This document shows positions 8,688 to 44,568 of a DNA stretch of 64,000 nt, piece by piece. How positions within the stretch are numbered: position 1 is the stretch's first letter; every line of letters starts with the position of its first letter. A program made the position numbers and the translations under genes. Under the pieces are notes generated by a model. That model had not been told where the DNA came from and ran no database searches. It saw only the letters and a program-made list of their open reading frames with translations. The stretch is from Candidatus Latescibacterota bacterium (GTDB lineage: Bacteria; Latescibacterota; UBA2968; SICM01), in NCBI GenBank assembly GCA_965217865.1, contig CBDCJO010000002.1:1216001-1280000 (forward strand), given 5' to 3'.

Positions 8688-9129
8688 CCTAGTCTAAATC
8701 GAGAATCCGAACAGAATGCGATGCCTGTCCACCCGGTCTGTCTCATCCGGAAAGTTACGATCTCGAACGTCCCGGGTGAGGGGCATGGCGAACTGGAAGA
8801 ACCCGATCATGGGCATACGGTAGAATGAAAACATCTGCATCCGAAGTTCAATTCCGAAGTTGCTCAGGAACGATTTTTTGTTGAAGTTGAGGTCGGTCAA
8901 CTTCTGGACCCCTAGTCTAAATCGAGAATCCGAACAGAATGCGATGCCTGTCCACCCGGTCTGTCTCATCCGGAAAGTTACGATCTCGAACGTCCCGGGT
9001 GAGGGGCATGGCGAACTGGAAGAACCCGATCATGGGCATACGGTAGAATGAAAACATCTGCATCCGAAGTTCAATTCCGAAGTTGCTCAGGAACGATTTT
9101 TTGTTGAAGTTGAGGTCGGTCAACTTCTG
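8684..9129. repeat. Tandem direct duplication, 2 x 223 bp (8684-8906 and 8907-9129), identical by eye, covering the 3' end of the 1154-aa gene
   Basis: Both copies begin gacccctagtctaaatcgagaatcc and end gaggtcggtcaacttctg; ORF 8694-8969 repeats the last ~70 aa of ORF 8917-12381. Confidence 0.95.
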
Positions 9130-12100: not shown

Positions 12101-12381
12101 GCGGTCCGTTTGGCATCCCCATAGTAGATGGTAAAGTGGTCCGTGCGGACCGATTTGAACCCCGGACGGCCAAGCCCGAGCAGGGAGGGGAAGAACCGGT
12201 CTTTCCGGAGCCGGGGGTCCAGGCCGGAGGAGATGTCGACGTCCCGACCCGGAAAGACGGGGCTTAATGTCTTTCCGGGATGACTAAATCTCCCCTGGGC
12301 TTCTGCTCCCGGCAGGTGGATCAGAATCGCGAGGCCTATCGCGAGCATGACCCAGAACGTCTTGTTAAGATGGAACGTCAC
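8917..12381 (-). CDS. Secreted/outer-membrane protein: HExxH metallopeptidase-like domain + PD40 (TolB-like) propeller + Omp85/BamA-like barrel
   Basis: Signal peptide; FTHEFTHIV and WFVEGIAQY; several SPDG repeats; YLGGWGSLRGYP resembling the Omp85 loop-6 VRGY motif; amphipathic C-terminal strand. Confidence 0.78.
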   Translation of the reverse strand: MTFHLNKTFWVMLAIGLAILIHLPGAEAQGRFSHPGKTLSPVFPGRDVDISSGLDPRLRKDRFFPSLLGLGRPGFKSVRTDHFTIYYGDAKRTARLVAEVAEEVFESIAPLYPSYFKSYRRVHVEIRDDLDFGNGYASFNLNLIVLWAAHLETERRGTRDWIKGVFTHEFTHIVTMKAARRGFPFNVAITQVAELNKNPDYIASIPLRDIALPTWFVEGIAQYEDENSGTESWDTHRDMLLRMATLEDDLLSYTEMGVFSRSQHHFEMAYNQGYSFLRYIDEVYGSDKVRALAENAGIVNFKSALSKVLGKSADEIYRDWKARLQVDYEAVADSLEGIGLAEGDKVIDEGDFDYYPMYSPDGGRVAYLSNLKSDFQLTDLRVRDLATGKARTIAKRVGTRFSWSPDGKKIFFNRAPGGTNDIYSYDLDTEEERRLTLSLRAKDPAVSPDGKQIAFVRHKDGTHNLGLMNANGTKIRDLTRHNDGTQYYGPRWSPDGKRIAFSVFRGKDRDIAVIRADAEPVKKPRKSKADSSKTFPDSLAYADNAGFEAIIRTDADERDPCWLPDGSGLVFASDRTGIFNLYEYDLDSKQVKQITNVPGGAFCPSTSPSGDEILYGNFHAADYSVYRVGRSGARDVHGLSLLDRDYREVYTGEPIDKLYKVGGYGTRLTLQGIASSIVLGPTFIGNRFGLDQISGGLQVAAGDLLGSDQIYGGVTIGKNLRRSGDINSDITLAYQKRLTPVSGERKAYFPTFYTIFNRETINSVLDLGTVAIQRDTLQGTLRIDTDEGRFLIPDALEFLHLTIDETDRFKDVFNTFLTGVELPLSSKQALTLNYTYRKLYETMRATSTLFDSSRVFQRGVEITDSIKVLDPRFGRPEVLDDRNLYSSDSGPFFKSSNLGISWRYLNITPTVDAYINPAGRYVSLGYRRINATVGDSLAQATIDPQTGLPVPTSGDPSPDPFRFDDLKLGINEITFSWNEFIRLGGRSTLALQTFIGYKDQPVKGFQPDGGPFEGLFYYPLRYYLGGWGSLRGYPYFSLQGGKALFGRASLTFPLIQRIGKELPPFYFDRLYATVYLETGATSDAQKLTDLNFNKKSFLSNFGIELRMQMFSFYRMPMIGFFQFAMPLTRDVRDRNFPDETDRVDRHRILFGFSI

Positions 12382-12486: not shown

Positions 12487-13464
12487 TCAATTGCCCGCCT
12501 GTCTCAGCAGGCACGAAACAAAATGTCCCACCGCAACCTCCTTCAACTCCGGGACATCGCGGGTACACGCCTCGACCCTTTCGGGACAACGGGGGTGGAA
12601 CGGACAGCCGCTCGGTACGGCCGCAGGGTTCGGTACGTCTCCCTCCAGAGTCGTTCGCCCGCGTCGCGCGGCCGGGTCCGGGACCGGAACGACCGAGAGG
12701 AGCGCCTGCGTGTAGGGATGCTGAGGGTTCGCGTAAAGGCGGTCTCGATCGCTGATTTCCACGATCTTACCCAGGTACATCACGGCAATCCGGTCGGAAA
12801 AATGGGCCACTACGTTCAGGTCGTGGGCGATGAAAAGATAGGTCAGACCGAACGACTTCTTCAGATCCTGAAGCAGATTGAGCACCTGGGCTTGAATCGA
12901 AACGTCAAGAGCGGAGACCGGTTCGTCCGCCACGATGAACTTGGGTTCCACGGCCAGCGCGCGGGCGATCCCGATCCGCTGTCGCTGTCCCCCGCTGAAT
13001 TCGTGAGGATATCGCCTGGCGTGGTCCGGGGAAAGCCCAACCGTCTCCAGGAGTTCGGCCACCCGGCTCCGGAGGGCCTTGCCCTTTGCCAGGTTGTGAA
13101 CCACCAATGCCTCTCCCAGCATTCCCCCGACGGTCATCCGGGGATTCAGGGAGCTGTAGGGATCCTGGAAGATGATCTGCATCTGCCGCCGCATGGCCCT
13201 CAGTTCCCGACGGTCCAGCGAAAGCACGTCGATCCCCTCGAAGAGGACCGCCCCTCCCGTCGCGTCGATCAGCCTCAGGATGGCCCTTCCCGTCGTCGTC
13301 TTTCCGCAGCCTGACTCCCCGACAAGACCGAGGGTTTCACCCCGACCGATCGAGAAGGAGACGCCGTCTACGGCCTTGACATATCCGGCCGACCGGGAGA
13401 AGAACCCCCTTGTAACAGGAAAATACTTCTTTAGGTCCTGGACTTTCAACAGCGCGTTTTCCAT
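12487..13464 (-). CDS. oppF: Oligopeptide ABC transporter ATP-binding subunit (OppF/DppF type)
   Basis: [48 protein letters not shown]. Start moved to MENALL (13464). Confidence 0.92.
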
Positions 13465-13492
13465 CCGGGGTGTTCCCTCCCGAAAACACGGG

Positions 13493-14488
13493 CTAATCGC
13501 CTTCAGACTGGGTTTCCGGGTATCCCTCCGCCTTCCAGCAGGCCACCCGCCGGCCACCCGCCAACTCCAGGAGGTCCGGTTCTCTCTCTCGACAGATCTC
13601 CTCGGCCTGCGGACACCTTGGGTGAAACCGGCAACCCGAAGGGAACAGGACGGCGTCGGGAACCGTACCCGGGATGGTATGCAGCCTGGAACGTTCCTGG
13701 GTCCACTTCGGGATCGAAGCGAGAAGACCCTGGGTGTACGGATGCAGGGGAGAGGCGAAGATCTCACCGACCTCTCCCTGTTCAACGATCTTTCCGGCAT
13801 ACATCACCGCCACCCGATCCGCAACTTCCGCGATGACCCCGAGATCGTGGGTGATCATCAATACCGCCATACCGAATTTGCGCTGAAGCTGACCCAGAAG
13901 TTCCAGGATCTGTGCCTGAATGGTCACGTCCAGAGCGGTGGTCGGTTCGTCGGCGATCAACAGGTCCGGGTTGCAGCTCAAGGCCATCGCGATCATCACC
14001 CGCTGGCGCATCCCCCCGGAGAGCTGGTGCGGGTACTCTTCCGAACGTTGGGGTGGGTCCGGGATGCCGACGCGACCGAGCATCTCTTCGGTCTTCTCCC
14101 TTGCCCCCTTTCTGCCCAACCCCTGGTGAAGCATCACCGCCTCATCGATCTGGTAACCGCACGTGAAGACCGGGTTCAGGCTGGTCATCGGTTCCTGGAA
14201 GATCATCGCGATGTCGTTTCCTCGAACCTGCTGCATCTCCTTTTCGTTTAACCGCAGGAGGTCTCGATCCTTGAATCGGATTTGCCCACCCCCGATCCGT
14301 CCCGGAGGATCGGGGATCAGCCGCATAATCGAGAGAGACGTCACGCTCTTTCCGCACCCGGACTCCCCCACCAGCCCCAGCGTCTCGCCGCTCCGGATGT
14401 GAAAACTCACCCCATCTACCGCCCGGGCGACGCCGTCTTCCGTGTAGAAATATGTTTTTAGGCCTTCAATCTCTAGAAGGGGTTCCAT
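13493..14488 (-). CDS. oppD: Oligopeptide ABC transporter ATP-binding subunit (OppD/DppD type)
   Basis: [47 protein letters not shown]. Start moved to MEPLLE (14488). Confidence 0.92.
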
Positions 14489-14545
14489 CCCAACACCCCC
14501 GAGGATCGGGTATTGAACTCCCGACAACGCATTCCGTTCCCGTCA

Positions 14546-15280
14546 TCACCCCACCACCTGCAACCACTTTTCCAATAGAAAACTCACCCTTCCGATCAAA
14601 AGGGAGAGACGGGCCATGACCGTATAGCCGAATGAGGCACCAAAGGAGATCATCAGGAACCATATCCCGACTCTGGAGACCCCGCCGACAACGCCCTTGT
14701 GTTCCACAGAGAAGGAGAAGTAGACCAGGACGCTGACCACGCCCACCAGAACGAGAACCGTGTCCAATGTCCCCCAGGTCAGCCCAGCTGGGCCACTCCA
14801 GAGGGGCAGGAGGCTGGGTCCGATCTGCTGGAGGATAAACGAGGCGATTTTTCGCGGAATGGCCAGCCCGGCCCCGAGTCCCACGATAAAAGCGAAGGAA
14901 AGGCGGCTGAGCCAGACCCCTTTTCCAATGAATCGGGTCATCAGGAAGAGCCCCAGGACGGTAGGGACGAGGACGAGCCACTTCGATTTTCCATCCGGCG
15001 ACGATTCTACCAGAGGATTAATGACGTCCGCCAGGATGTTCTGGTACCAGACCTGAGCGAGTTCATAAGCCGCAACCACCCCCACATAGAGGTGCTCCGC
15101 AATCTTGAACAGGGGGTTGTCTTTGTAGAGGGAGCTGTATAATGCGAGCGTGATCCCGGCCGCCAGGATCGTTCCGAACCCTCCCCAGTCCGCGGCGAGT
15201 TTCCCCGAGTCCATCAGGTAGAGGTTTACAGCTCCGAAAACGGCGATAAAGACCAGAAAGATGATCGTGTCCCTGTTCAT
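14546..15280 (-). CDS. Hypothetical polytopic membrane protein
   Basis: About 7 TM segments; LYKDNPLFKIAEHLYVG and MISFGASFGYTVMARLSLLIGR blocks; 10 bp from the upstream gene. Confidence 0.85.
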   Translation of the reverse strand: MNRDTIIFLVFIAVFGAVNLYLMDSGKLAADWGGFGTILAAGITLALYSSLYKDNPLFKIAEHLYVGVVAAYELAQVWYQNILADVINPLVESSPDGKSKWLVLVPTVLGLFLMTRFIGKGVWLSRLSFAFIVGLGAGLAIPRKIASFILQQIGPSLLPLWSGPAGLTWGTLDTVLVLVGVVSVLVYFSFSVEHKGVVGGVSRVGIWFLMISFGASFGYTVMARLSLLIGRVSFLLEKWLQVVG

Positions 15281-15290
15281 GAAGCTTCCC

Positions 15291-16121
15291 TCACCGAGGC
15301 GATTTTGAAAACCTGCGATGGGTGAAATAGACGATGTTTCCCAGCAGGATGAAGGCGATGATGATCACGTGCGCCACAGATTGGGGCCGCATTCCGCTCA
15401 CCGCCAGATCTTTCCTGTCGATCAGGGTTTCGTATTCGGCGGCCCCGGCCAACCCGCCGATCATGCCGTTGAGCTGTTTGGACTGGAGAAACGGGAAGAA
15501 ATCCGGTGCCATCACCGCCGTGCATCCACAGCCCAGGAGGAACCGGTAGCGCTCCTGTCCGTAGGCGATCCACTCTTCGACCCCGGGGTAACCCGCCGCA
15601 AGATCGATGACGTAGTCCAGGTCTTTCAGAGATCGGATTCCTCGGGTCACTTCCATCTCATTTGTTGGGTGCCCCCGGAAATCCTCTGAAAAGGTTCCGT
15701 GAAAATCCTGGCCCATGTTGAGGATCAGAATCGGGCCTCCGGCCTTGAATCCGAGGAAAGCATAATCCCTGCCGTATTCCCGTTCAAATTCCTCTGCGGC
15801 GGTCTCGAAGGCATGCTCGGCCAGACCAACCCCCTCAGCAATGAGGGTGACGCCGATCACCCGGATTCCCCGACTGAAGCAGTGTCGGAGGATCGCCACG
15901 GCCATCGGTTGGAGCTCCGGCTGTGAGGTTGGGCCATAGTCGAATGAGATCAGGACGGTGGCCCCCTCCTTTCCCGCCAGGTTTTCGATCGTATCGTGGA
16001 CCGCCCGCACGTTGGGGGTGGCCCGGATCGGGAGCTCGAAGTCGATCAAAAGGGGAATCGAGACGCCCAGGAAGATAAAGAGGTAAACGATGCGGCGATC
16101 GATGTTCAGAAGCCTTTCCAT
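15291..16121 (-). CDS. Hypothetical membrane-anchored alpha/beta protein (TM - soluble domain - TM)
   Basis: N- and C-terminal TM helices; DYGPTSQPELQP and GGLAGAAEYE blocks; start overlaps the upstream stop at 16121. Confidence 0.85.
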   Translation of the reverse strand: MERLLNIDRRIVYLFIFLGVSIPLLIDFELPIRATPNVRAVHDTIENLAGKEGATVLISFDYGPTSQPELQPMAVAILRHCFSRGIRVIGVTLIAEGVGLAEHAFETAAEEFEREYGRDYAFLGFKAGGPILILNMGQDFHGTFSEDFRGHPTNEMEVTRGIRSLKDLDYVIDLAAGYPGVEEWIAYGQERYRFLLGCGCTAVMAPDFFPFLQSKQLNGMIGGLAGAAEYETLIDRKDLAVSGMRPQSVAHVIIIAFILLGNIVYFTHRRFSKSPR

Positions 16122-16771
16122 CAGGACTCTTCCCCCCCGAGGTATGCCCGTTCAATCCCAAAGATGATTCGGAGGGCGGTCGCGATGGCCCCGAGGCTGA
16201 CCCCGAGCAGGATGCCGCGTCGCGCGGCCATGTTGGGAATGTCCATCAGCCACTGTGAGATCGTCGGAAGGTAATCTGAGATATAAGCCCCTACCGGAAC
16301 CCGGCCGAGCATCACAACGACAGCGGCCACCAAGAGGATGACGGCCTCCGTGGACCGGGCACGAAAGGTCCGGTACGCGGCCGATGCGATGAAGAAGGCA
16401 AGCAACGAAAACATCGTCCCGCCCGCGGCCACCTGGATGTTGGTGTACATCCAGCCCAGCCCACCTCCCGTGGTCTGCGGCTCAAAAGGGCCCTCACCGT
16501 TGTTGTAGATCGCGAAGATGAAGGCCAGGCCGAATCCCGCGTAGGTGATCAGACTGAATCCCCATCCTGGGTTTTTCCGTCTGATCCGGGTCCAGTGGAG
16601 GTGCAACAGGCTGTGGATCCCGAGGAACATCGCGAAGGCCGCAATGATCCGGTACCAGGTGGCCGTCTCCTTCTCGATCACCTGGGCGACCGGGATATAG
16701 TAGGTAAATATCCCGATTATACCCGCCAAAAAGGCGATAATCAGGGGGAGTGTCCGCTGAAAAAAAGGCAT
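16121..16771 (-). CDS. Hypothetical polytopic membrane protein
   Basis: About 6 TM segments; TMFSLLAFFIASAAYRTFRARS and LRIIFGIERAYLG blocks. Confidence 0.85.
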   Translation of the reverse strand: MPFFQRTLPLIIAFLAGIIGIFTYYIPVAQVIEKETATWYRIIAAFAMFLGIHSLLHLHWTRIRRKNPGWGFSLITYAGFGLAFIFAIYNNGEGPFEPQTTGGGLGWMYTNIQVAAGGTMFSLLAFFIASAAYRTFRARSTEAVILLVAAVVVMLGRVPVGAYISDYLPTISQWLMDIPNMAARRGILLGVSLGAIATALRIIFGIERAYLGGEES

Positions 16772-16791
16772 AAATTATCCGAGCAAATTCC

Positions 16792-18003
16792 TCAGTAGGA
16801 TGTGAACAGGGGTGTGAGCCACGGATGTCCGACGGTGGCCATGAGGGTCCCAACCAGGATCACCAGGATGAGAAATCCCTTCCCGACGTCCTGACCCTTC
16901 AGGCTGCCCAGGAGTTTAGGGTCCCGCGAGAGATACGCGCTTGCCGCATAGAGCTCCTCGCCCATCAGCGTATAGTCGCACGTCGTCACCAGGAACGGGA
17001 GCTGCGTATAGGCGTCCGTTCCTGCGATCTGGATCGCCCCCGTGACAGAGCCTGGTTCGGCAAGGAGGAGGGACTCCGCATAGAAATAACCCATCATGAT
17101 ATGGGCGGCCGGTCGTTCCCGCATCATAATCCCCTGAAGTGCCGCCGCATAGCTGAACTGGTCCGCCGCGGCCATGAAGATGTTATCCTCGTTGTACGCA
17201 TCGGGCCGACCCACATCGATACACGCCTCTTTGACCACCTCCTGACTCACCAGCATAACGATAGGATACCGGTTGGACACCTTCAGCTGCGTATCGAATT
17301 CCGCGGTGCGGCGGGCCACCTGGCTCAGGATGTTCACCGCAGCGATGGTGGATGGGCTTTCCATATCGTGCAGGCCGTGGATGAAAAGCACGGGCTTCCC
17401 CATCTCCGTCGCGCGGCCGAGGGCCTCGTCAAGGGCCTCCAGACCTGCGATCCGCCGGACGTAAAGGTCCTTCCGTCTCGCCATCCCAATAAAGGCCAGG
17501 ATGAGGACAGAAATAAGGGAACCCAGGATGAAATTGTTCAACTTCGACCAGTTGAACCAGTTTCCATAGGCCTCCGCCCGGAAGACCGTCGGGATCTCTG
17601 TGGTCGTTTCGCCAACCTGGATCCCCATTCGGAGATAATAGGTCCTGTTGTCCGCAAGATCAACGGTCCTGCCGTCCGGAAGGGTATAACCTTTAAGCCG
17701 GACGAAGTGATAGTCTTTGTTCTCTTCGCTCAGCCCGAAGGTGCCGGGTTCGTCGGCCATGGTCCCCACTGCTGCTGCGTCGATCTCCAAGGCCGGGTAA
17801 AAAGGCCCGCCGGGAGACTCGCCGACTACGATCTTGTAAAGCCCCTCGACGGGGGTCTCGGGCCGCCGCCACGTGAAGGTGATGCTGCCCCCGGTGTCGT
17901 TCCGGGTGTCGAAAACAGCGGCCTCCAGCGGGAGGTATTCCTGTTCATCAGCAGAACCGGTGTAAGGCGTAAGAAACAAAAAACAAAAGGCTGTCAGATT
18001 CAT
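16792..18003 (-). CDS. DUF6754-like membrane protein with N-terminal FN3-like exported domain
   Basis: DTRNDTGGSITFTW beta domain, TM helix, then RRIAGLEALDEALGRATEMGKPV...QLPFLVTTCDYTLMGEELYAASAYLSR...GSLKGQD; family assignment from recall. Confidence 0.75.
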   Translation of the reverse strand: MNLTAFCFLFLTPYTGSADEQEYLPLEAAVFDTRNDTGGSITFTWRRPETPVEGLYKIVVGESPGGPFYPALEIDAAAVGTMADEPGTFGLSEENKDYHFVRLKGYTLPDGRTVDLADNRTYYLRMGIQVGETTTEIPTVFRAEAYGNWFNWSKLNNFILGSLISVLILAFIGMARRKDLYVRRIAGLEALDEALGRATEMGKPVLFIHGLHDMESPSTIAAVNILSQVARRTAEFDTQLKVSNRYPIVMLVSQEVVKEACIDVGRPDAYNEDNIFMAAADQFSYAAALQGIMMRERPAAHIMMGYFYAESLLLAEPGSVTGAIQIAGTDAYTQLPFLVTTCDYTLMGEELYAASAYLSRDPKLLGSLKGQDVGKGFLILVILVGTLMATVGHPWLTPLFTSY

Positions 18004-18047
18004 GGGCTCAGGTCCGATCGTCCCCGGGTCGCACCCGGGAATATTTA

Positions 18048-19175
18048 CTATTCGGCCATCAACTCCACATTCGCTCGCGGTACGATCGTTCGAGTACCGT
18101 CCTCCAGCTCAACTTCCAGGACCCGTACCATTGCTTCGGAGGAGACTTTCTGAAGATCCGTCGGAAGCGCGGTTACCCGGCCGATCCTACCGAAGTATGG
18201 GGACCGGATGATCCGAAGCAATGCCCCAAGGCCGAGCCCCTCCTCGAGGGATCCGGTCTCCGAGCCGTCACCCCCAACCCCGCTCGGATCGGGAACGATG
18301 ATCTCCGGACGCATGACACCCGCTCGAATCTGGGTGGCGCCCGATACGGAGGCGTCCATTCCCGAATGGTCTGCGAGGATCTCAAAGGTCCTTTCGGCCA
18401 TTCGGATCTCCCCGAACCCTTCGGTCACAATCACGGTCAGTCCGATCTCCTCCGGGCCGGTGATGGCCACCCCCAGATCATAACCCAGCAGCTCCCGCAG
18501 GTCCTGGTCCCGGATTCCGCCACCAATCACCCCAGCCGCGCCCAATTCCCGGGCCCGGCGGACCCCCTCGAGGGTGATCCGTCTCCCGGAGACGAGAATT
18601 TTATCCCGGCAGTCTGAATCGAGCCGCTCTGTCGAAAGATCCTGATCCGGGGCATCGGTCACCAAATGGATAGGACCCCAGCGTTCACCGCCCACCCCGA
18701 AGATGCCCTGAATGAAGGCCCCCTTTGTCTCGATCACGACCCCTTCGTCAGGGATGATCTCCACGGCCCACCCATCTACAAAAGCTTGAATCTCAACCCG
18801 ACGAGGGGATTCACGCAGCAGGACCTGCCCGGTCACTGAGGAGAGGCTTTCAACCGTTCCTGCAACGGGCGATTCGACAGTCGTTTTGAACCACTTGATG
18901 AAAGGTCGGGTCTCGGCTATCGTTTCCCCGACCTCCACCGTTTCACCCTCTTTCTTCAACATGTAGGCGGACAGTTCAGACGGGGTTACGCCGAGTCGGT
19001 TGACCAGATTCAACGTGGTCACATCTCCAGGCAGGTTCGTTCGTGCGACCACCTGATCCCTTCGGACCCGGTCTCCTCCTGAGACCAGCACCTCTCCTTT
19101 CAGGGGAAGCTGTCGCCGTTTTCTGACGGTGGCCCGTCGGGTTACGCGAAGACCTGGGGTGTAAGCGTGAGCCAT
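18048..19175 (-). CDS. Hypothetical soluble protein with biotinyl/lipoyl-like (barrel-sandwich hybrid) motifs and a C-terminal KOW/SH3-like domain
   Basis: Start MAHAYTPGL at 19175; VLVSGGDRVRRDQVVA and LKKEGETVEVGETIA...VESPVAGTV motifs; C-terminal LRIIRSPYFGRIGRV...VPRANVE. Confidence 0.8.
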   Translation of the reverse strand: MAHAYTPGLRVTRRATVRKRRQLPLKGEVLVSGGDRVRRDQVVARTNLPGDVTTLNLVNRLGVTPSELSAYMLKKEGETVEVGETIAETRPFIKWFKTTVESPVAGTVESLSSVTGQVLLRESPRRVEIQAFVDGWAVEIIPDEGVVIETKGAFIQGIFGVGGERWGPIHLVTDAPDQDLSTERLDSDCRDKILVSGRRITLEGVRRARELGAAGVIGGGIRDQDLRELLGYDLGVAITGPEEIGLTVIVTEGFGEIRMAERTFEILADHSGMDASVSGATQIRAGVMRPEIIVPDPSGVGGDGSETGSLEEGLGLGALLRIIRSPYFGRIGRVTALPTDLQKVSSEAMVRVLEVELEDGTRTIVPRANVELMAE

Positions 19176-19227
19176 CTTTGATTCGTTAGGGCACTGCCCC
19201 GATTTAATCTTCAATCCCAGTCGGGAT

Positions 19228-20268
19228 CTATTCAAACCTCATCTTGGGATCGAGGGCGTCCCGGAGCCCGTCCCCCAGCAGGTTGTAGACCGTCACCGTC
19301 CAGAAGATTGCAAACCCCGGCACCACCACCAGCCACCAGGCCGAGACATTGCTGCGTGCCCCTGCAAGGAGCGAACCCCAAGTGATCGCCTCCGCGGGAA
19401 CCCCGATCCCGAGAAAGCTTAAACCCGATTCCGTAAGAATCGCTCCAGCCACCCCGAACGCTGCAGGGATGAGCACCGGTGCGATGGCGTTTGGCAGAAT
19501 GTGGATAAACATGATCCTGGGTGTGGAGTAGCCTAAACTGGCCGCAGCGGACACGTAGTCGTAACTTCGAACCTGCAGGAACTGTGAACGCGTCAACCGG
19601 GCGATCCCGACCCAACTCGTAAACCCGATAATGATCATGATAAAAAAGAGGCTGGGCGGAAAGAAGGCCGCAGCAGTGATGATCAGAAAGAAACTGGGGA
19701 TGGCCGCCCACAATTCGAAAACCCGGGATAGGGCAAGGTCCATCCAACCGCCAAAATAACCCGCCAGAGCCCCCAGAGAGACGCCGATGACCATAGAGAT
19801 TCCAACCGAGACAAGCCCGATCGTCAGTGCATACCGGGATCCGTGAATCAAACCCGCGAGCACGTCTCTTCCAAGCCGATCCGTGCCCATCAGGTGATCC
19901 GGTCCGGGAGGCTGATATCTCTCGGACAGCCGGATCTCCCCCGGCGCGTAGGGGATCGGGGGAAAGACCGCTAAGGTGGTCCTGAATCGCTTGAAGTTCC
20001 GGCGCCGTTTCAGTTCCGGCTGCCATTCCATCAGCCCGAGGTTCACGGCATACTGGCGAAACGCCGGAAAATAGATCTCTCCCTGGAACGACATGAGATA
20101 AGGCTTGTCCCCGGCCAGGAGGTCCGCAAAGAGGGCGATCAGGGCAAGGAGACCGATGGCTGCAAGGCTGGCGACGGCGGGCCGGTTTTTTCGGAACTGT
20201 TTCCACACCAGCTTCGAAAACGTCTCCCCCCCCGTTTCAACGCCATCGATCTCGGTTGTGCGTCCCAT
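19228..20268 (-). CDS. oppC: Oligopeptide ABC transporter permease (OppC type)
   Basis: HLMGTDRLGRDV, HILPNAIAP, ESGLSFLG, NLLGDGLRDALDP. Confidence 0.92.
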   Translation of the reverse strand: MGRTTEIDGVETGGETFSKLVWKQFRKNRPAVASLAAIGLLALIALFADLLAGDKPYLMSFQGEIYFPAFRQYAVNLGLMEWQPELKRRRNFKRFRTTLAVFPPIPYAPGEIRLSERYQPPGPDHLMGTDRLGRDVLAGLIHGSRYALTIGLVSVGISMVIGVSLGALAGYFGGWMDLALSRVFELWAAIPSFFLIITAAAFFPPSLFFIMIIIGFTSWVGIARLTRSQFLQVRSYDYVSAAASLGYSTPRIMFIHILPNAIAPVLIPAAFGVAGAILTESGLSFLGIGVPAEAITWGSLLAGARSNVSAWWLVVVPGFAIFWTVTVYNLLGDGLRDALDPKMRFE

Positions 20269-20271
20269 GGG

Positions 20272-21570
20272 CTATCCTTGAATCTGAGAAAATTCGATGC
20301 GCGGATCCACCGCTCTCAAGAGGATGTCCGCGATCAAGATTCCGACCAGCGAAAGCGTCGACCCGATCGTAAAGATCGCCATGACCATCGGGTAATCCCG
20401 AACCAACACGGATTCATAAGCCAGGAACCCCATTCCCGGAATCGTGAAGATCGTCTCGATAAACACCGAACCCGCGATCAGGATCGGGAGGAGATTTCCC
20501 ATGATCGTGACGATCGGAATCAGGGAATTTCGAAACACGTGGCGGAACACCACCGCCCTTTCGGACAGCCCTTTTGCCCGCGCGGTACGCACATAATCGA
20601 GTCGAAGGTTTTCCAGCATACTCGTGCGCATAAATCGGGAAATTCCGGCAAAACTGGCATAACAGGATGCGAGGATTGGCAATGCAATGTGGTGGGCGTG
20701 ATCTTTCAAAAGGCGCCAAAATCCCCACTCACGGGATGCTTCGAGCGATTGGATGCCCGATGCGGGAAACCAGTAAAAAAATTCTTTATTGCAGAAAAAG
20801 ATGATTAGGAGCATCCCCAACCAGAAGGAGGGCATGGACCAGAGCATAAAGGTCCCGGTGGTGAGCGCCCTGTCCGCGGCGGTATTCTGTCTGACGGAGA
20901 GAAAAACCCCCAGGGGTAATCCGATGAGATAGGCTGCGATAAGGCTGATCACGTTGATCTCGATCGTAATCGGAAGCCGCTCCAGGATCCTGGCGATCAC
21001 GGACTGTTGGTCCTTGAATGACCGGCCGAAATTCAGCGTAATAAATCGCCTGTCGAACAGGTGAAAAACAAGGCCCGAGCCGCGATACTCATAATTCCGA
21101 TCGGCTTTCAACGTCTTCCCCTCCCAGAAAGAGGACGCGATCAATTCCGGAACCCGGTCGGGATTTCGAAACCGGAGATGCTTCAGGAAACGGTCTTTTC
21201 GGGCTTGGTCCTCAAGGCGTTCGAGCTCCGCTTTTTGCGCGTCGTCAAGGCCCTGGAGGACGCGATCGGCCAGTCTTGCCGCGCGATCGTAGTCGTTCAG
21301 AGGCTCCACGCGGAGCAACAGGTTGGAAAGCCAGCTCAAGTACTGGATGTGCATGGGTTTATCCAACCCGAGCTGGCGCCGAAGATCCTGAACCGTCTTC
21401 TCCATGTCCGCCTGTCGGTCGGTCGAAATTCCCTCTCCGCCGGCGAATCCCCCTATGAACAGGTCCACCGGATCCCCCGGAGCCAGGTGCATGATGAAGA
21501 AAGAGATAAGCGTGATCCCGACGAGGGTGGGGATCAGAAGCAAGATTCGTCTGGCGACATACTGTAACAT
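20272..21570 (-). CDS. oppB: Oligopeptide ABC transporter permease (OppB type) with an enlarged loop
   Basis: APGDPV, LGLDKP..IQY..WL, DYVRTARAKGL, RHVFRNSLIP, RDYP, DPRI. Confidence 0.92.
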   Translation of the reverse strand: MLQYVARRILLLIPTLVGITLISFFIMHLAPGDPVDLFIGGFAGGEGISTDRQADMEKTVQDLRRQLGLDKPMHIQYLSWLSNLLLRVEPLNDYDRAARLADRVLQGLDDAQKAELERLEDQARKDRFLKHLRFRNPDRVPELIASSFWEGKTLKADRNYEYRGSGLVFHLFDRRFITLNFGRSFKDQQSVIARILERLPITIEINVISLIAAYLIGLPLGVFLSVRQNTAADRALTTGTFMLWSMPSFWLGMLLIIFFCNKEFFYWFPASGIQSLEASREWGFWRLLKDHAHHIALPILASCYASFAGISRFMRTSMLENLRLDYVRTARAKGLSERAVVFRHVFRNSLIPIVTIMGNLLPILIAGSVFIETIFTIPGMGFLAYESVLVRDYPMVMAIFTIGSTLSLVGILIADILLRAVDPRIEFSQIQG

Positions 21571-21600
21571 ATAAGGATAGGAATGTCCGAAGCCACGATC

Positions 21601-23469
21601 CTAACGATAAACGACGTCTTCGGGTGAGACCCACCACTCCTGGGTATCGGCGCCCCCGGGGTACCAGTTCACGCCGCGAAACCGACGGCTGTATGCCGTG
21701 GCCGACCGTTGCTTCCAGAGAAAGGTATAAGGCTGTTCTTCGTGAAGGACTTCCTGGAAACGCCGGTAGAGCGAAATCCGGTTTTCCAGATCGAATTCCT
21801 GGCGATAAGTTTCCAGAATCCGGTCAACCTCGGGGTTGACGAAGCTGATAAAATTCGACCCGGTTCCCTCCGCCTGAGAGGAATGCCAGATCTGGTAGCC
21901 ATCGGGGGGAAAGCGAAGGCTGCCCGTCCATCCAAGGGTGATAGCGGCAAAATTCTTGCCCTTGACCCGCTCCAGGAAGATAGACCAGTCGAGCTGCCGC
22001 ACCTGGCAGACGATCCCGATGTCGTTGAGTTCGCTCTGGACAATCAACGCGATATCCTTTCGGAGTTGGTTCCCGGAGTTGACCAGGAATTCGAACTCGA
22101 ACGGCCTCTTCTCCCCATCGATGATTTTGTCCAGAACCCCGTCGCCGTCCGTATCCCCCCAACCGGCCGCTTCGAGCAAATCAAAAGCTTTGTCCGGATC
22201 AAAAGTATAAGGTGTTAAATCGTGGTTATACTCGGGTCGGAACTTGTGAATGGGTCCCTCCACGGCTTCTCCGAGACCGAAAAGGAGATTCTTTATCATC
22301 TTCTCCCGGTTCGTCAAATGAGTCATGGCCATTCGGACCCTCTTGTCACGGAATATGGGATGGGCGTTGTTCCAGCCGATGTAGGTAAATCCGCCCGAGT
22401 ACTCGATTCCCTTCAAGAAGCGACTCGTGAAATCAGGCGACCAGCTCTTGTCCTTGAATTCCAGGGGACGGAGCCCGTAGAGGTCAAGATTACCGTTCGT
22501 CAACTCGATAAAGGCCGCATCGGTGTTGTTGATGATCTTGAAGACGATCTTATCGACGTACCCGGTCGGAGGAAGTCCTTCCACACCGTGGCCCCAATAC
22601 TCCGGGTTTCGGGTGAGCGTCACCTTCTGGCCGGTCACAACGTCATTTTGCCAGTCCTCGACGAAGTAGGGACCGGACCCGAGCATTCGGCGGTTGTATT
22701 CCTGGTTGAACCGCTCAGCGAATTTGGTGACGCGGTCGGCATGGAGGCCGCCCTCCCAGGTCCCGTCGATCAGGCTTTGAACCGAAACCGGATCCATCAG
22801 TCCGTCCGGGTCGTAAAAATGCTTGGGAAGGATCTCAAAACTGCCCAGGGCGAGATCATTCCGAAAGTAGGGTTGCTTGCAGACGAAGACGACCCGGTTT
22901 CCATCCGCTTTTTTCACCGCTTTTACAGCCGAGTAATAATTCCGCAGGTGAGGCGCCAAGACCTTGGGATTCTGGATCACTTTCATGCTGAAAATCACAT
23001 CATCCGCAGTCAGGGGCGCACCATCTGCGAAAGTGACGCCCTCCCGCAATGCGAAAGCGTACGAAAGCTTGTCCTCCGAGATCTCAGGATAATCCCTGGC
23101 CACCATCCCCTTCAGTGGATAAGGCTTCTCGTGTTCCGGGTAAAGCAGGGACTCGAACACATACCCGGACACGGTCGAGGCCCCCGCGTCGTTGGAGGTG
23201 TAGGGGTTGAAGTTTTCTGGGTCCGAGAGGAAGTGGCGGACGATCCAGTCGCCGAAAACCGGATTCTCATCACTCGAGAATCGCAAAGGGGCTTTTTCGC
23301 TCCCGTCCAACACCACGATGTCCTTCGTCTCAACGAGGAGCTTCTGGACTTCATTCCAGGGCCCTTCGGGCCCGGAATCGATGGCCGTTTTTGTGTCGTT
23401 CCCACAGGAGTGTAAAAACAACGCGGATATCGACAGCCCGTATCGTACAACCAGATCCCCACCTGACAT
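21601..23469 (-). CDS. oppA: Peptide ABC transporter substrate-binding lipoprotein (family 5)
   Basis: Lipobox-like FLHSC; FALREGVTFADGAPLTADDVIFS; GSGPY; FRDKRVRMAM. Confidence 0.88.
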   Translation of the reverse strand: MSGGDLVVRYGLSISALFLHSCGNDTKTAIDSGPEGPWNEVQKLLVETKDIVVLDGSEKAPLRFSSDENPVFGDWIVRHFLSDPENFNPYTSNDAGASTVSGYVFESLLYPEHEKPYPLKGMVARDYPEISEDKLSYAFALREGVTFADGAPLTADDVIFSMKVIQNPKVLAPHLRNYYSAVKAVKKADGNRVVFVCKQPYFRNDLALGSFEILPKHFYDPDGLMDPVSVQSLIDGTWEGGLHADRVTKFAERFNQEYNRRMLGSGPYFVEDWQNDVVTGQKVTLTRNPEYWGHGVEGLPPTGYVDKIVFKIINNTDAAFIELTNGNLDLYGLRPLEFKDKSWSPDFTSRFLKGIEYSGGFTYIGWNNAHPIFRDKRVRMAMTHLTNREKMIKNLLFGLGEAVEGPIHKFRPEYNHDLTPYTFDPDKAFDLLEAAGWGDTDGDGVLDKIIDGEKRPFEFEFLVNSGNQLRKDIALIVQSELNDIGIVCQVRQLDWSIFLERVKGKNFAAITLGWTGSLRFPPDGYQIWHSSQAEGTGSNFISFVNPEVDRILETYRQEFDLENRISLYRRFQEVLHEEQPYTFLWKQRSATAYSRRFRGVNWYPGGADTQEWWVSPEDVVYR

Positions 23470-23490
23470 TGGCCTCTTATTCCCCCTGTG

Positions 23491-25278
23491 TCAGTTTGGA
23501 TAGAGCTTGAATGCCTTGTGCCATCCTGAAATCTGTTCCACCCGGTCCCCGAGGTCCTTCGCGAAGGCAATCGGTCGGCCCCGACCGTCCAGGATCAAGC
23601 CCACGACCCCCCCATACACCGTCGTGCTGATCTCCTGCCCCCGTCCGGCTCCAGCGTCCCACTTCCGGTCGGGTTGCAGGACGATCTCCGCCGGGGCATC
23701 TTCCGGAAGGGAAAATCTTAGCAGTTCCCCGGCCTTGAGCTCACCCGACGTTTCGCCGTTGGGGAATCGAATTTGAAAAGTGCAACAGACATCCCCTGAT
23801 TTTCCAGATCCTGTCGGTGCCACACACGTGCCCAGATAGATCATACAGTCCCGTTCAAACACCTCTGTGGCGGCCTTTTCGTTGACCTGGGATAAGACCC
23901 CCAGGTGGGGCATCATAAACACGCTGTCGACCCCGATCCGGGTGACCCCCTCCGGTTGAAACGCATCGATGATCATGGCCATCGACTGGGCGCGACGTGG
24001 AGCGTGCGACAGGACTCCCCCGCTGCCCACAATCAGGTCAAGATCCATCATCCGAATCAGACTCTCTCCCGTCCCAACCTGATCGAATACGTCCGAAAGG
24101 CTTCGCTCGGTTTGCACCCCCTTTAGCCCGACGGCAAGCTTTCGGTGCTGGAGGAACGCAAGTCGCAAGGCTTCCCGGGCGAGAGCTTGCTCAATTTTGA
24201 GTTCGTCCAGGGTTTGCGGGATGGTCGTGGGGCGAATCATCTTGTTCTTGACCCGATCGCGCAGGTCCGCCTCATCCACCGGGAAAGGCACCCAGCGAAC
24301 GATGTTCGGCAATCCGGCCTCTGCAAGGACATTCGATACGCTGTACGACATGCCCAGATTGGCGCTGACCGTCCGGTGAAAGCTGCCTCCGAACACGCTG
24401 AAGATGTCCGTTGTGGCCCCCCCGATATCCACCCCGATCACGTGGATATCCTTCTTTTCGGCGATCTTCTGTATGATCAACCCGACCGCCCCCGGTGTGG
24501 GTACGATCGGTGCCCCGGACCAGGATATCAACTTCGGATACCCGGGTGCCTGGGCCATCACGTGCTCGAGGAACAGGTCGTGTATCTTTTCCCTGGCCGG
24601 ACCCAGGTTCTCTCGCTCCAATACAGGCCGGAGATTTTCGGTGATGGTCAGCGCCGTTTTCTCCCCAAGGGTTTTCTCCACCACCTGGCTGACATCCCGG
24701 TTTCCAGCATAGATCACAGGCAGTTTGAAACCGACCCCGAACCTTGGACTGGGGTTCGCGGCAGCGATAAACTCGGCCATCTCCACCACGTGGGTCACCG
24801 TGCCCCCGTCCGTGCCCCCCGACAAGAGGACCATATCGGGACGGAGTTGCCGAATGCGTTCGATCTTCTGATGGGGAAGCCGCCCATCGTCGGTGGAAAG
24901 CACATCCATGACGATGGCCCCTGCACCGAGGGCACACCGCTGAGCGCTTTCACCCGTCATAGCCTTTACGACCCCGGCCACCATCATCTGAAGTCCACCC
25001 CCCGCACTGCTCGTGGAGATGTAGATGTCCACCCCCTCCCCGCCGTTCGCCGGGGTGATGATCCGCTCCCCATCGAGGATCCGCCTTCCCGACAGCTCTT
25101 CGATCTCCTGGATGGCGTTGAGCACCCCGCGCGTGACATCTTCGAACGGCGCCTCCACCGTGGTGGGCGCCTCCCCCCGATGGGTCTGACGATAGGCGTC
25201 TCCTTTTTTTTCTATTAGGATCGCCTTGGTCGTGGTGCTTCCGCAGTCGGTGGCGATGATAACGTTCAGGTCTTTCAC
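23491..25278 (-). CDS. glmL: GlmL/MutL(glutamate-mutase-associated)-like ASKHA ATPase
   Basis: DCGSTTTKA (phosphate 1), APTTVE, SSAGGGL, LSGGTDGG, PTPGAV, DIGGATTD (phosphate 2), GSGGVLSHAP; GTG start overlaps the upstream TGA. Confidence 0.85.
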   Translation of the reverse strand: MKDLNVIIATDCGSTTTKAILIEKKGDAYRQTHRGEAPTTVEAPFEDVTRGVLNAIQEIEELSGRRILDGERIITPANGGEGVDIYISTSSAGGGLQMMVAGVVKAMTGESAQRCALGAGAIVMDVLSTDDGRLPHQKIERIRQLRPDMVLLSGGTDGGTVTHVVEMAEFIAAANPSPRFGVGFKLPVIYAGNRDVSQVVEKTLGEKTALTITENLRPVLERENLGPAREKIHDLFLEHVMAQAPGYPKLISWSGAPIVPTPGAVGLIIQKIAEKKDIHVIGVDIGGATTDIFSVFGGSFHRTVSANLGMSYSVSNVLAEAGLPNIVRWVPFPVDEADLRDRVKNKMIRPTTIPQTLDELKIEQALAREALRLAFLQHRKLAVGLKGVQTERSLSDVFDQVGTGESLIRMMDLDLIVGSGGVLSHAPRRAQSMAMIIDAFQPEGVTRIGVDSVFMMPHLGVLSQVNEKAATEVFERDCMIYLGTCVAPTGSGKSGDVCCTFQIRFPNGETSGELKAGELLRFSLPEDAPAEIVLQPDRKWDAGAGRGQEISTTVYGGVVGLILDGRGRPIAFAKDLGDRVEQISGWHKAFKLYPN

Positions 25279-25670
25279 AACCGGTTTATGCTTCCCCGCT
25301 TTGGGTTGATGTCAGGCGGCACCCCGTCCTCGATCCGTTGTTCTTGGTGTTTCACGATCCGGTCGATGATAACGTCGATGCAGCCGCGCTTTTCAAGGAT
25401 CCGGGTGAAACGGGCGTATTTCTCACCGGATAAGAACATCGTCGCGAACGGGGAAAGGAAGACCAGGAACTGACTCCCGATAAAATTCAGAGGTCGACCC
25501 GATTCCAGGAGCATGAGCGATGGGACGGTCATCTTTCGTCCGACCAGATACGCAGCCAGGCTGTCGATCAGAGCGATATCCTGATCTTCAAAAGAATCGT
25601 GCTTTGGGATGGAAAACGCGTGTGAAAACCACGCCTTAATCCCTTCCCCCTTGGATGCTGCAGTCGACAA
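25275..25670 (-). CDS. Hypothetical protein
   Basis: Coupled to glmL by a GTGA overlap; block PSLMLLESGRPLNFIGSQFLVFLSPF. Start uncertain. Confidence 0.72.
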   Translation of the reverse strand: MSTAASKGEGIKAWFSHAFSIPKHDSFEDQDIALIDSLAAYLVGRKMTVPSLMLLESGRPLNFIGSQFLVFLSPFATMFLSGEKYARFTRILEKRGCIDVIIDRIVKHQEQRIEDGVPPDINPKRGSINRL

Positions 25671-26112
25671 AGTCGAGCACCTCGTTCCGATTGTCTTTGA
25701 ATCTGAGAAAGCAGCCCCGGAAGGCGTCCAAACGGCTGGGCACGCCGAAGGGGGTTAGAAAGACCCCTTCACGATGGACGTAGTGGTTCCTGAAACGTTC
25801 CCAAGGTATCCTTCGGGTCCATCCCGCGTGTTTGACGGCAACCTCTTGTTCGGTAAGGGAATAGCGGACCGGGAAAAAATATCGGGACATGGAGGATCCC
25901 AGAATCGTGAACGAGACGAAAGATAAGACCAGGCTTTCGAGGCTAAAATAGACCCCCACGGAGAAGCCGCTGATCGCGAGGACCAACCCCCCGGACTTCC
26001 ACCCCGGATCGTCCCGCACGGGGTGAGAAGTCCACGAAAGGCCGCCTGAAGCAGGCCTTGAGCCCTGTGAATTTCCGCTCGATTCAACCGCTTCATCACC
26101 CATTATAGTCAC
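25636..26112 (-). CDS. Hypothetical membrane protein (2 TM + small beta domain)
   Basis: LSWTSHP, two TM helices, YFFPVRYSLT...PSRLDAFRG; GTGA overlap with the upstream ligase stop. Confidence 0.72.
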   Translation of the reverse strand: MTIMGDEAVESSGNSQGSRPASGGLSWTSHPVRDDPGWKSGGLVLAISGFSVGVYFSLESLVLSFVSFTILGSSMSRYFFPVRYSLTEQEVAVKHAGWTRRIPWERFRNHYVHREGVFLTPFGVPSRLDAFRGCFLRFKDNRNEVLDFVDCSIQGGRD

Positions 26113-26954
26113 CGGATCACCCGCCGTTGCGGGGCGAAATTCCAGGCCTCGGTGCCGTACTTCTCGTTCACAAGGAGATCCACACGGTTGCGTTCGCGAT
26201 CCATCAACGGCCTTTCCACAAGCGGGATTTCAAGTTCCTGCTCAAAACCCTTCCGGAGATTCTCCGCAAGGTTATCGAAATCGATCGATCGACCCAATTC
26301 CTCCTCCATCGAGGTCGCCTTCTCCAGCTCCTCTCGAAATCGTTCCCTCTGATCCTCGGAATCGATACGAAGAAGCTCTATGATCTGCTTGTGTTCCACC
26401 CCTATGATCAGGGAGCCGTGCTGAAGAAGCATGTCCCCCATCCGCCGCTGGGCACTCCCGATCAGCTTTTTCTCCCCAACGACCACCTCGTATCTGGCCG
26501 CAGACGAAAAACACGGGGATGTGATCGAAGCACCCGTCGGACGAACCGAGGGAACATCCCCTCGAACGATGTCCGCGGCCAAACCGAAGAGACGAAGCCC
26601 GGCCACGAGGCATTCGCTGATTTGTCGGTAGGCCTCAGTCACCCCCCCGCGGACCATCGGGTCATCACCCCTGCAGAGCACACTATAGGTCAACTCGTTC
26701 CAATGCAGAACCGCACGCCCTCCGGTCGGTCGGCGCACGACCTCTACGCCCAACTCCCGGCACCGATCAAGGTCCACCTCCTTGTCCACCCGCTGGGCAT
26801 ACCCGAAAGAGAGGCCCGGAGGATGCCATCCGAATGTCCGAAAGACGGGGGGCGAGGCCCCCTCCTGGACGGAACCCAGGACGGCCTCATCCACGGCCAT
26901 ATTAAAAAAGGCGTTTTCAAAACGGGTGTTCAGAAAACGCCAAGTCGCTTTCAT
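26109..26954 (-). CDS. lipM: Lipoate-protein ligase family protein, LipM-like octanoyltransferase
   Basis: NMAVDEA, VVRRPTGGRAVLH.ELTYSV, CF....YE, KLIGSAQRR, LQHGSL; no LplA C-terminal extension. Confidence 0.78.
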   Translation of the reverse strand: MKATWRFLNTRFENAFFNMAVDEAVLGSVQEGASPPVFRTFGWHPPGLSFGYAQRVDKEVDLDRCRELGVEVVRRPTGGRAVLHWNELTYSVLCRGDDPMVRGGVTEAYRQISECLVAGLRLFGLAADIVRGDVPSVRPTGASITSPCFSSAARYEVVVGEKKLIGSAQRRMGDMLLQHGSLIIGVEHKQIIELLRIDSEDQRERFREELEKATSMEEELGRSIDFDNLAENLRKGFEQELEIPLVERPLMDRERNRVDLLVNEKYGTEAWNFAPQRRVIR

Positions 26955-39700: not shown

Positions 39701-39921
39701 TTAAAATGGGGGGTCTCAACCACCTGCCAGGATAGTTCCGGATGATTGGCCGACAGGGGATACTGTCCGGATGCAGGCCCGGGGGAATGGAACCAAAGGA
39801 TGGCCAGGAGGCAAACGACCCTCAGAAAGTCCTTATTTAACCGCTGCTTTGACAAATCGCACCTCTTTTTGTCCACCGCGATCAGTGGCCTCAACACGAC
39901 AGATATAGAGTCCTGTGGCAT
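36748..39921 (-). CDS. HExxH metallopeptidase-like + PD40 propeller + Omp85/BamA-like barrel protein (paralogue of 8917-12381)
   Basis: ITHEYTHVV, WFAEGVAQY, WDSHRDMILRMATL, SPDG repeats, IGGLPGMKGYTYY. The true start is probably somewhat downstream of 39921. Confidence 0.78.
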   Translation of the reverse strand: MPQDSISVVLRPLIAVDKKRCDLSKQRLNKDFLRVVCLLAILWFHSPGPASGQYPLSANHPELSWQVVETPHFKIYYDRELEEIARRAAEVAEAAFGPITSLYRHVPPEKVRIILRDTDDFANGVALYYQNTIEIWTTNLALEFELRGTSDWLRNVITHEYTHVVSLQVAQKAPARIPGFYFHYLGYQQEENRKDILQGFPDVITSYAVPSVVCPPWFAEGVAQYQASGAKFDRWDSHRDMILRMATLHDKLLSYDEMGVFEKNGLGNEKVYDHGYSLTRYIAREFGEDKIEKITRGMSSWWRFNFSSAIQRALGISGVELHDRWKADLKAKYGAVADSVNVSRIDGVGFRADGYLNIIPRWSPKGNRLIYLSNKGGDYGRLGLYLNVSSEGPDERLPGGAVTSATWRPDGKAIVFSKRSDPDRNGSRYWDLYEIAPDGKEARRLTHGLRATQPDISPDGEWIAFVKNARGNSDLWLSRSDGTDGKALSINRGGTQIYTPRWSPDGRRIAYSQSDGKRRDIGVMSPEGGRGEILIRSEGTDRDPCWSLDGRRLFFCSDVTGIFNIYAFDFEDGTITQVTNVLGGALFPDVNSQDGRIAFSHYGHNGYEIRILPDVRSWRSVDPGLFNLPIPPDPIKNPQGEIGADATAGSGTSNQIEESDQNFTASVPPVSSGEEIQIPSRPYRNEFSALTLLPRVAIDDGIPKVGSFFASDDILGKQSLFAGVLLGRNFDQDLFGIFELRQFRPTFYLEYYRQVRHQDEQIVNRDEDFRLYERIFALNEIGLGLRGKFKGGTASGAAIYSRYNTTIDQSSFNRIDVPRGRVTANYLSGLDMAFTYRHQSIPRRRDTDINPRGGREVFFRYDRFFNYFLKGFRDDASIVQEIYDRYIYGQVLLDWHEYLPVLGRSTVAFNLFGGMVDRKVDPFFSLRIGGLPGMKGYTYYSLEGRRVAFLNATYRFPLFPSIKRQAGPIFLDKIYGALYADLGRAWDGDGMDRILKRGVKKDLGAQIRFDAVSFHIFPTRFSVDAAYGLDTVPLQSAGDPELRSGLKFYFSLLFGYL

Positions 39922-42913: not shown

Positions 42914-42971
42914 ACCCTCAGAAACGATGGGAACGGACCCTCCCCAACCTCCCTATACCGGGGATTGGGTC

Positions 42972-44006: not shown

Positions 44007-44141
44007 CTCGGACCTCCTGGATAGATTAACCTTTCCAATCCTTAAAAGAAACCCTTTCCAAAGGAAAAATCAAGAAAAGATATTCAATTAAAGGTTTGAT
44101 TTACTCCAAATTATCGAATCAGCAAATCCGGGTCCAAAAAT

Positions 44142-44184
44142 AAAAAAACCGAGCAAAAAAGCCGACGACCCGGCCGCTCGGTTT
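44142..44184 (-). terminator. Candidate intrinsic terminator
   Basis: Inverted repeat aaaccgagc (44146-44154) / gctcggttt (44176-44184) with an inner gccg/cggc stem, followed on the minus strand by a U-run. Confidence 0.55.
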
Positions 44185-44568
44185 GAATTTTTTCGAATTG
44201 CGATCAACCAGGAAATTACAATATCGGAATACGACTTAGGCGCCCAGATACTACGGCAATATGGGCACCAAACACTAATGCGATGGTTTGCGAGCATCAT
44301 GCAAGTCGGGGAATGAGAATCACTGTCCACCTTGAATCCATTGACGAGCTGGTGATTGAAACACGGGTACAATCCATTGTCCCACAAGTTGTAGAGCGAA
44401 CGACAACCATTGGTCACAAACCATAAGACGTTACATGCGGCTTGGTGCCTGTATCCGGAATTTACCCTTAAATGGGACATTCCGTAACCTAACCCTAAAG
44501 GTATAGGGGATACACCACGTATTGTCACCTTTAAGAAACGACCCGTCGGTGATCGGTGAGTTAAAAAA

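What the first reader, a model, noticed from the sequence alone, without database searches (positions are those of the whole stretch)
12487..26954. Candidate undescribed system: orphan GlmL-like ATPase, lipoyl-like protein, DUF6754-like protein and three membrane proteins interleaved with a peptide ABC transporter
Seen: 14 co-oriented genes with gaps under 60 bp and several overlapping stop/start junctions (lipM-like, two small genes, glmL-like, oppABC, the MAHAYTPG protein, DUF6754-like, three membrane proteins, oppDF). The five unknown genes sit inside the opp cluster, which argues for co-transcription. Known: GlmL/MutL-type ASKHA proteins normally accompany B12 mutases such as glutamate mutase or ornithine aminomutase, as presumed reactivases; no B12 mutase or cobalamin gene occurs in these 64 kb. 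Inference: the ATPase has a different client, and the block may encode an ATP-driven membrane complex that modifies, processes or transports a peptide or cell-wall-derived substrate (lpdA and anmK lie further down the same strand).
Basis: partly seen in the sequence, partly recalled or inferred. Interest (0 to 1): 0.85.

Follow-up and report, generated by a model that had tools for sequence, protein, structure and literature searches.

The report
Candidate new ATP-driven uptake machine
Eight genes of unknown function, found together or co-occurring in many little-studied bacterial groups and one archaeal group, encode a predicted actin-fold ATPase with a partner protein and four predicted membrane proteins that likely form an undescribed ATP-driven uptake machine, while the peptide transporter interleaved with them here is a lineage-specific neighbour.

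Summary
The 14-gene run is real. Its core is eight genes: two small genes, a 595-aa GlmL-like ASKHA protein, its 375-aa partner, and a four-gene membrane cassette (DUF6754 plus three Pfam-less proteins). In 42 same-phylum genomes the ATPase, partner and DUF6754 were all present in 28 and all absent in 14. Of 35 more distant genomes picked by the partner, 34 hold DUF6754. Glutamate mutase occurred in 2 of 77 genomes, each with its own short GlmL. The window's protein fails all three NCBIfam GlmL/Or-4 cut-offs. The partner folds as barrel-sandwich, swivel and KOW domains, with no conserved histidine or lipoyl-lysine. DUF6754 has a predicted cytoplasmic Rossmann-like domain; the 276-aa subunit has a predicted outside domain. 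Some genomes hold five cassettes per ATPase; Bacillota and Bathyarchaeia copies sit beside amidohydrolases and peptidases. Opp, lipM, lpdA and anmK are not core. Best reading: a modular ATP-driven importer (0.45); binding and transport are unshown. No paper found describes it. This scan has noted the system before, in at least 18 other genomes.

The parts
25636..26112 (-). Small accessory protein (158 aa), two hydrophobic segments then a soluble domain; no Pfam family
   Evidence: In 50 of 80 partner loci; hydropathy; one relative has a faint bPH_6 hit, E 0.035
25275..25670 (-). Small accessory protein (131 aa), no family
   Evidence: In 62 of 80 loci; also beside cassettes in Bathyarchaeia and Armatimonadota stretches
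23491..25278 (-). Long GlmL-like ASKHA-fold predicted ATPase (595 aa), with about 110 C-terminal residues that true GlmL lacks
   Evidence: PF13941 421 bits; under the NF040745, NF040744 and TIGR01319 cut-offs; phosphate-1, phosphate-2 and adenosine motifs conserved
18048..19175 (-). ATPase partner (375 aa): barrel-sandwich hybrid, swivelling beta/beta/alpha and KOW/SH3 domains
16792..18003 (-). DUF6754 subunit (403 aa): N-terminal hydrophobic leader, FN3-like outside domain, TM, predicted cytoplasmic Rossmann-like domain, TM
   Evidence: PF20539 377 bits; FN3 hits E 2.6e-5; model pLDDT 90.8; fold search; positive-inside counts
16121..16771 (-). Polytopic membrane subunit (216 aa), conserved Arg residues; no family
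15291..16121 (-). Membrane subunit (276 aa): TM, predicted outside alpha/beta domain, TM; weakly like DUF6754
   Evidence: Positive-inside counts; CARDB insert in relative P0186; hhalign E 5.5e-4, probability 30%
14546..15280 (-). Polytopic membrane subunit (244 aa); no family
21601..23469 (-). OppA-type solute-binding protein (lineage-specific neighbour)
   Evidence: PF00496; relative at 55% identity or more in 26 of 80 loci, none among the 35 distant loci
19228..21570 (-). OppB and OppC permeases (lineage-specific neighbours)
   Evidence: 3 and 2 of 80 loci
12487..14488 (-). OppD and OppF ABC ATPases (lineage-specific neighbours)
   Evidence: 12 of 80 loci
26109..26954 (-). LipM/LplA-like ligase, continuing the fab-rnc run; not core
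   Evidence: PF21948; 12 of 80 loci, all titled Latescibacterota

Best explanation
The eight core genes co-occur as one gene system, which likely works as a modular ATP-driven importer in which the predicted actin-fold ATPase and its partner would energise a predicted four-subunit membrane unit that would take up amino-acid, peptide or amide compounds. Shown: co-occurrence, fixed cassette order, cassette multiplication over ATPase copies, intact ASKHA motifs. Predicted: the 276-aa subunit's domain faces outward and DUF6754's Rossmann-like domain faces the cytoplasm. Inferred: the outer domain picks the substrate, the 216- and 244-aa subunits form the path, DUF6754's inner domain is the dock for the ATPase pair, and ATP turnover drives the cycle, possibly by phosphorylating the cargo as hydantoinase-type ASKHA subunits do (recalled). 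In this lineage the unit shares an operon with an Opp transporter because both likely serve peptide use.
For: Co-occurrence: 28 of 42 phylum genomes hold ATPase, partner and DUF6754, and 14 of 42 hold none; no discordant genome. Of 35 distant genomes picked by the partner, 34 hold DUF6754 and 35 a PF13941 match, although the halves are often unlinked. Order: DUF6754-216-276-244 is never permuted in the 56 of 80 loci and 40 of 60 fetched stretches that hold cassette genes. Shared energiser: G069, G072 and G081 have 5 DUF6754 matches and 1 ATPase; G071 has 9 and 5; G087 has 11 and 4. The 276-aa gene is duplicated in L038 and present four times in L174, and takes large inserts. One amidohydrolase family follows cassettes in two Bacillota genomes and a Bathyarchaeia genome (L120, L129, L139; 43-45% identity). 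M20, S9, M24, C26 and M14 peptidases, allantoinase and hut genes flank other copies. K+R counts give opposite sidedness for the two domain-bearing subunits.
Against: No membrane subunit resembles a known transporter, so transport is argued from context alone. Most genomes have one highly conserved copy (ATPase 62% mean identity in distant loci) among housekeeping genes. These include Brocadia- and Scalindua-labelled genomes, autotrophs by established knowledge, which fits catabolic uptake poorly. Neighbours outside Bacillota and Bathyarchaeia are mostly unrelated, and I ran no enrichment control for peptidase neighbours. Six Bacillota ATPase pairs sit with another unknown 300-330-aa protein and not with a cassette. 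Kin are not independent in the 28/14 split.
Confidence: 0.45

Rival explanations
1. A transmembrane sensing device: the outside domain binds a ligand, the cytoplasmic Rossmann-like domain switches the ATPase pair, and the pair regulates a target (compare Mlc sequestration by a PTS permease, recalled).
For: An outside domain and an inside nucleotide-binding-type fold; RCK/KTN gating domains are among the tied fold matches. The partner has a KOW domain and its best Foldseek hit is T. maritima NusG (E 1e-4, TM 0.16). PilZ fusions to the partner in P0039, P0045 and P0106.
Against: Two extra polytopic subunits with conserved Arg residues are more than a sensor needs. No regulator gene is conserved in the 80 loci. 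The NusG match is not global.
Confidence: 0.2
2. A housekeeping envelope machine (export, insertion or modification of a lipid or protein) powered by the ATPase pair.
For: Single copy and high conservation across lifestyles. Neighbours include fab/rnc, Lgt, Lit and glycosyltransferase-like genes in scattered loci. FN3-like outside domain.
Against: Absent from 14 of 42 phylum genomes, including a one-contig genome of the same class (G047). Multiplied up to about nine-fold beside catabolic hydrolases. No envelope gene is conserved next to it.
Confidence: 0.2
3. An accessory of the Opp transporter that processes imported peptides.
For: The same oppA stays next to the core in 26 of 80 loci, in shuffled orders. 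In 6 of 7 phylum genomes that hold both, it lies within a few kb of the core, in 4 between ATPase and partner.
Against: This oppA was not found in 21 of 28 system-bearing phylum genomes, nor beside any of 35 distant loci. G047 has it without the system.
Confidence: 0.08
4. A reactivase for a B12 enzyme encoded elsewhere.
For: PF13941 match. PF09043 in 7 of 77 genomes. Methylmalonyl-CoA mutase genes near one cassette (L167) and a cobalamin adenosyltransferase near the ATPase in L161.
Against: The own genome (96% complete) gave no GlmE, MCM, PF09043, PF02286 or EutB match. 54 of 63 partner-bearing genomes have neither GlmE nor PF09043 over cut-off. The two GlmE genomes carry a separate short GlmL between glmE and an upstream gene.
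Confidence: 0.03

Closest known systems
GlmL/MutL of glutamate (methylaspartate) mutase and Or-4 (PF13941; NF040745, NF040744, TIGR01319)
   Same: ASKHA fold and motifs; PF13941 over cut-off. PMC4682846 (one passage seen) calls MutL/GlmL a chaperone for reactivating glutamate mutase.
   Different: Under all three NCBIfam cut-offs, about 110 extra C-terminal residues, separate branch in a quick tree, no mutase neighbours; has a dedicated partner and a membrane cassette.
ECF and ABC importers with a shared energising module (recalled)
   Same: One ATPase module with several exchangeable membrane units.
   Different: The ATPase is ASKHA, not ABC; the membrane subunits match no ABC or ECF family.
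Diol dehydratase reactivase DdrA (ASKHA plus swivelling domain)
   Same: The ATPase and partner together hold the same two fold types.
   Different: No profile similarity of the partner to 20 DdrA-locus sequences (E 0.43); DdrA not among the listed fold matches; no dehydratase found in this genome.
PTS enzyme I phosphohistidine domain / RraA
   Different: No conserved His in the partner; its conserved residues lie in the GITGxE and GxTxIRAGxxRPE segments.
Membrane-tethered Rossmann domains: transhydrogenase dIII, RCK/KTN

Membership tests
GlmL/MutL | PF13941 over cut-off, with ASKHA phosphate motifs | tested here: met
   421 > 27 bits; motifs
GlmL/MutL | NF040745 >= 475 or TIGR01319 >= 204 | tested here: not met
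   225.9 and 170.2. Controls: L148 scores 574.6 and 404; L149 scores 446.5 and 412
GlmL/MutL | Encoded with glmS and glmE | tested here: not met
   No glmE in the window or own genome; 2 of 77 genomes have it, beside a different gene
GlmL/MutL | Reactivates an adenosylcobalamin mutase | not testable with these tools
   Needs an assay
Or-4 | NF040744 >= 600 and an aminomutase in the genome | tested here: not met
   204.5; PF09043 not found in the own genome, while the same query rang in 7 genomes
DdrA-type reactivase | Swivelling domain homologous to PF18427 | tested here: inconclusive
   hhalign E 0.43 on shallow profiles; not listed in the top fold matches
Lipoyl/biotinyl carrier | PF00364 over cut-off and a conserved hairpin lysine | tested here: not met
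   19.1 < 22.1; no lysine conserved in that domain at 60% over 39 non-redundant rows
PTS phosphohistidine carrier | Conserved His on the swivel domain | tested here: not met
   No His among conserved residues of that domain; only the fold is alike
Transhydrogenase beta / RCK | Specific homology of the Rossmann domain | tested here: inconclusive
ABC/ECF importer (core eight genes) | ABC-type ATPase and permease families | tested here: not met
   No such Pfam or NCBIfam match in the core
Opp/Dpp ABC importer (the five opp genes) | SBP_bac_5, two BPD_transp_1, two ABC_tran with oligo_HPY | tested here: met
Known anti-phage systems | Match to a PADLOC model | tested here: not met
   0 of 8 proteins

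The most novel reading that the evidence does not exclude
A new class of primary active transporter, in bacteria and archaea, driven by an actin/Hsp70-fold ATPase shared among exchangeable four-subunit membrane units. Each unit is built around two inverted-topology paralogues, and the ATPase may phosphorylate the cargo as it enters.
Probability: 0.35. Interest if true: 0.92.

Novelty: categorically new. Interest (0 to 1): 0.72.

Why it matters
I know of no transporter class driven by an ASKHA-fold ATPase (recalled; paper searches found no description). The families are large: 5,325 clusters at 50% identity for the 276-aa subunit, and at least 8,000 relatives of the partner. They span many phyla and Bathyarchaeia. 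The 'glutamate mutase L' label is misleading for them, so glutamate fermentation inferred from it would be wrong. Named Bacillota carry DUF6754 (Anaerobranca gottschalkii, Alkalicella caledoniensis, Clostridium sp. 'deep sea'), so the system can be tested.

Full report
Observation. The fourteen genes are present on the minus strand with gaps under 60 bp once oppD and oppF get their proper starts; four junctions overlap. Family scans give LplA/LipM-like, PF13941, OppABCDF and DUF6754, and nothing for the two small genes and the three membrane genes. Contigs of a close strain in another run bridge the same order. The closest relatives are titled Latescibacterota. The genome is 96% complete with 9% contamination, and each core gene is single-copy.

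What travels together. I fetched 80 loci with the 375-aa partner, the best 80 of 546 confirmed. The GlmL-like gene is in 69 (directly upstream in 65), the small genes in 62 and 50, and DUF6754 and the three membrane genes in 56, 55, 54 and 53. Record titles include Clostridia, Planctomycetota, Elusimicrobia, Ignavibacteria, Zixiibacteriota, Armatimonadota, Poribacteria and Bathyarchaeia. In a phylum sample DUF6754 was in 47 of 61 genomes. For 42 of those genomes I also searched the ATPase and the partner: 28 had all three and 14 none, counting fragment hits to PF13941 of E above 1e-7 as absent. For 35 loci that I classed as distant by title and lower identity, 34 of the genomes hold DUF6754; the 35th shows its start at a contig end. 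The samples may overlap, and kin are not independent. The cassette order is never permuted.

What does not travel. lpdA and anmK are in 0 of 80 loci and lipM in 12. Close oppA, oppB, oppC and oppD/F relatives are in 26, 3, 2 and 12, none in the 35 distant loci. This oppA was found in 8 of 42 phylum genomes, 7 with the system and one without. The link persists through rearrangement: oppA upstream, oppDF downstream, or oppABC inside. That suggests a shared regulon in this class, but not a subunit.

The ATPase is not GlmL. It keeps the ASKHA motifs but scores 226, 205 and 170 bits against cut-offs of 475, 600 and 204. Glutamate mutase E passed its cut-off in 2 of 77 genomes. Each of these has a second GlmL beside glmE that passes TIGR01319, lacks the 110-residue C-terminal part and branches apart in a quick tree. 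The own genome gave no match for five B12-enzyme families. Four of its 11 B12-binding hits were read and look like corrinoid methyltransferase proteins or radical SAM enzymes (my reading). Against this: PF09043 is in 7 of 77 genomes, and two stretches have B12 genes nearby.

Anatomy. The partner model (pLDDT 87) has a barrel-sandwich hybrid like NqrA/RnfC, a swivelling domain like PTS enzyme I and RraA, and a KOW barrel. Neither a His nor a hairpin Lys is conserved. Its most conserved parts are two Gly/Thr/Arg/Glu segments kept even in divergent paralogues. The DUF6754 core model (pLDDT 91) is helix, Rossmann-like domain, helix, with only generic tied matches. Mean K+R counts flanking the helices are 1.7/4.2 and 2.4/0.65 for DUF6754, and 3.5/1.5 and 1.5/3.9 for the 276-aa subunit. 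This predicts opposite sidedness, and a CARDB insert in one relative agrees. The two subunits are weakly alike (E 5.5e-4, probability 30%), so inverted paralogy is a lead only.

Mechanism. Cassettes outnumber ATPases in several genomes (5 to 1 in three), and tandem cassettes occur. In Bacillota and Bathyarchaeia, cassettes and ATPase pairs sit beside amidohydrolases, peptidases, allantoinase and histidine-utilisation genes; one amidohydrolase family follows cassettes in both domains. I picked these neighbours as co-oriented genes within 3.8 kb (218 found, about 160 scanned), with no background control. Elsewhere the neighbours are mixed. I therefore favour a modular ATP-driven importer of amino-acid, peptide or amide compounds (0.45) over a sensor (0.2), an envelope machine (0.2), an Opp accessory (0.08) and a B12 reactivase (0.03).

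Literature. 'DUF6754' is in 0 papers. Searches were seen as listings with abstract starts, and none describes the system. I saw passages only of PMC4682846 (GlmL as a reactivating chaperone), PMC5167688 (not relevant) and PMC5597319 (glutamate mutase-named and reactivase families in the actin superfamily). Subscription journals and supplements were not searched. The scan has noted the system in at least 18 other genomes.

Verdict. A real, widespread, undescribed eight-gene system with a lineage-specific Opp insertion. Interest 0.72; categorically new as far as I could search.

Noticed in passing
P0039, P0045, P0106; L045:8986-9828: PilZ domain fused to the front of the partner protein, or encoded just before it: possible c-di-GMP input.
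   Followed up: no
L126, L127, L130, L133, L134, L178 (after the partner gene): A family of 300-330-aa unknown proteins follows ATPase pairs that have no cassette nearby; no Pfam, NCBIfam or PDB match in those scanned. Possibly another client of the pair.
   Followed up: partly
L119:8699-9604, L137:6885-7793, L140:7512-8405: A DUF483-like gene of about 300 aa directly follows cassettes in Bacillota and Bathyarchaeia.
   Followed up: partly
L151, L154; L150, L153: PTS enzyme I and a SIS/PGI gene lie directly upstream of a cassette in two genomes; pyruvate phosphate dikinase follows triple cassettes in two.
   Followed up: no
L125:6360-7706, L133:9106-10413: Partner proteins with a duplicated N-terminal barrel-sandwich region.
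   Followed up: no
P0186, P0222, P0135: Relatives of the 276-aa subunit with CARDB, HEAT-repeat or duplicated inserts.
   Followed up: partly
window 8917-12381, 36748-44006: Two large PD40/peptidase-MA proteins, an FG-GAP protein with a weak Por secretion tail hit, and a PorV-like gene; the 8917-12381 gene follows oppF in 12 of 80 loci.
   Followed up: no
window 44000-50000: Lower-GC stretch with two IS1595 transposase genes; gene strand and cumulative GC skew both turn here.
   Followed up: no
L081, L082 (own genome): Corrinoid-protein clusters, one with methyltransferase-like and ferredoxin-ASKHA-activator-like neighbours by my reading.
   Followed up: no
L160, L162: In two Armatimonadota-labelled genomes a second cassette is followed by a choice-of-anchor X protein and a Tubulin_2 gene.
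   Followed up: no
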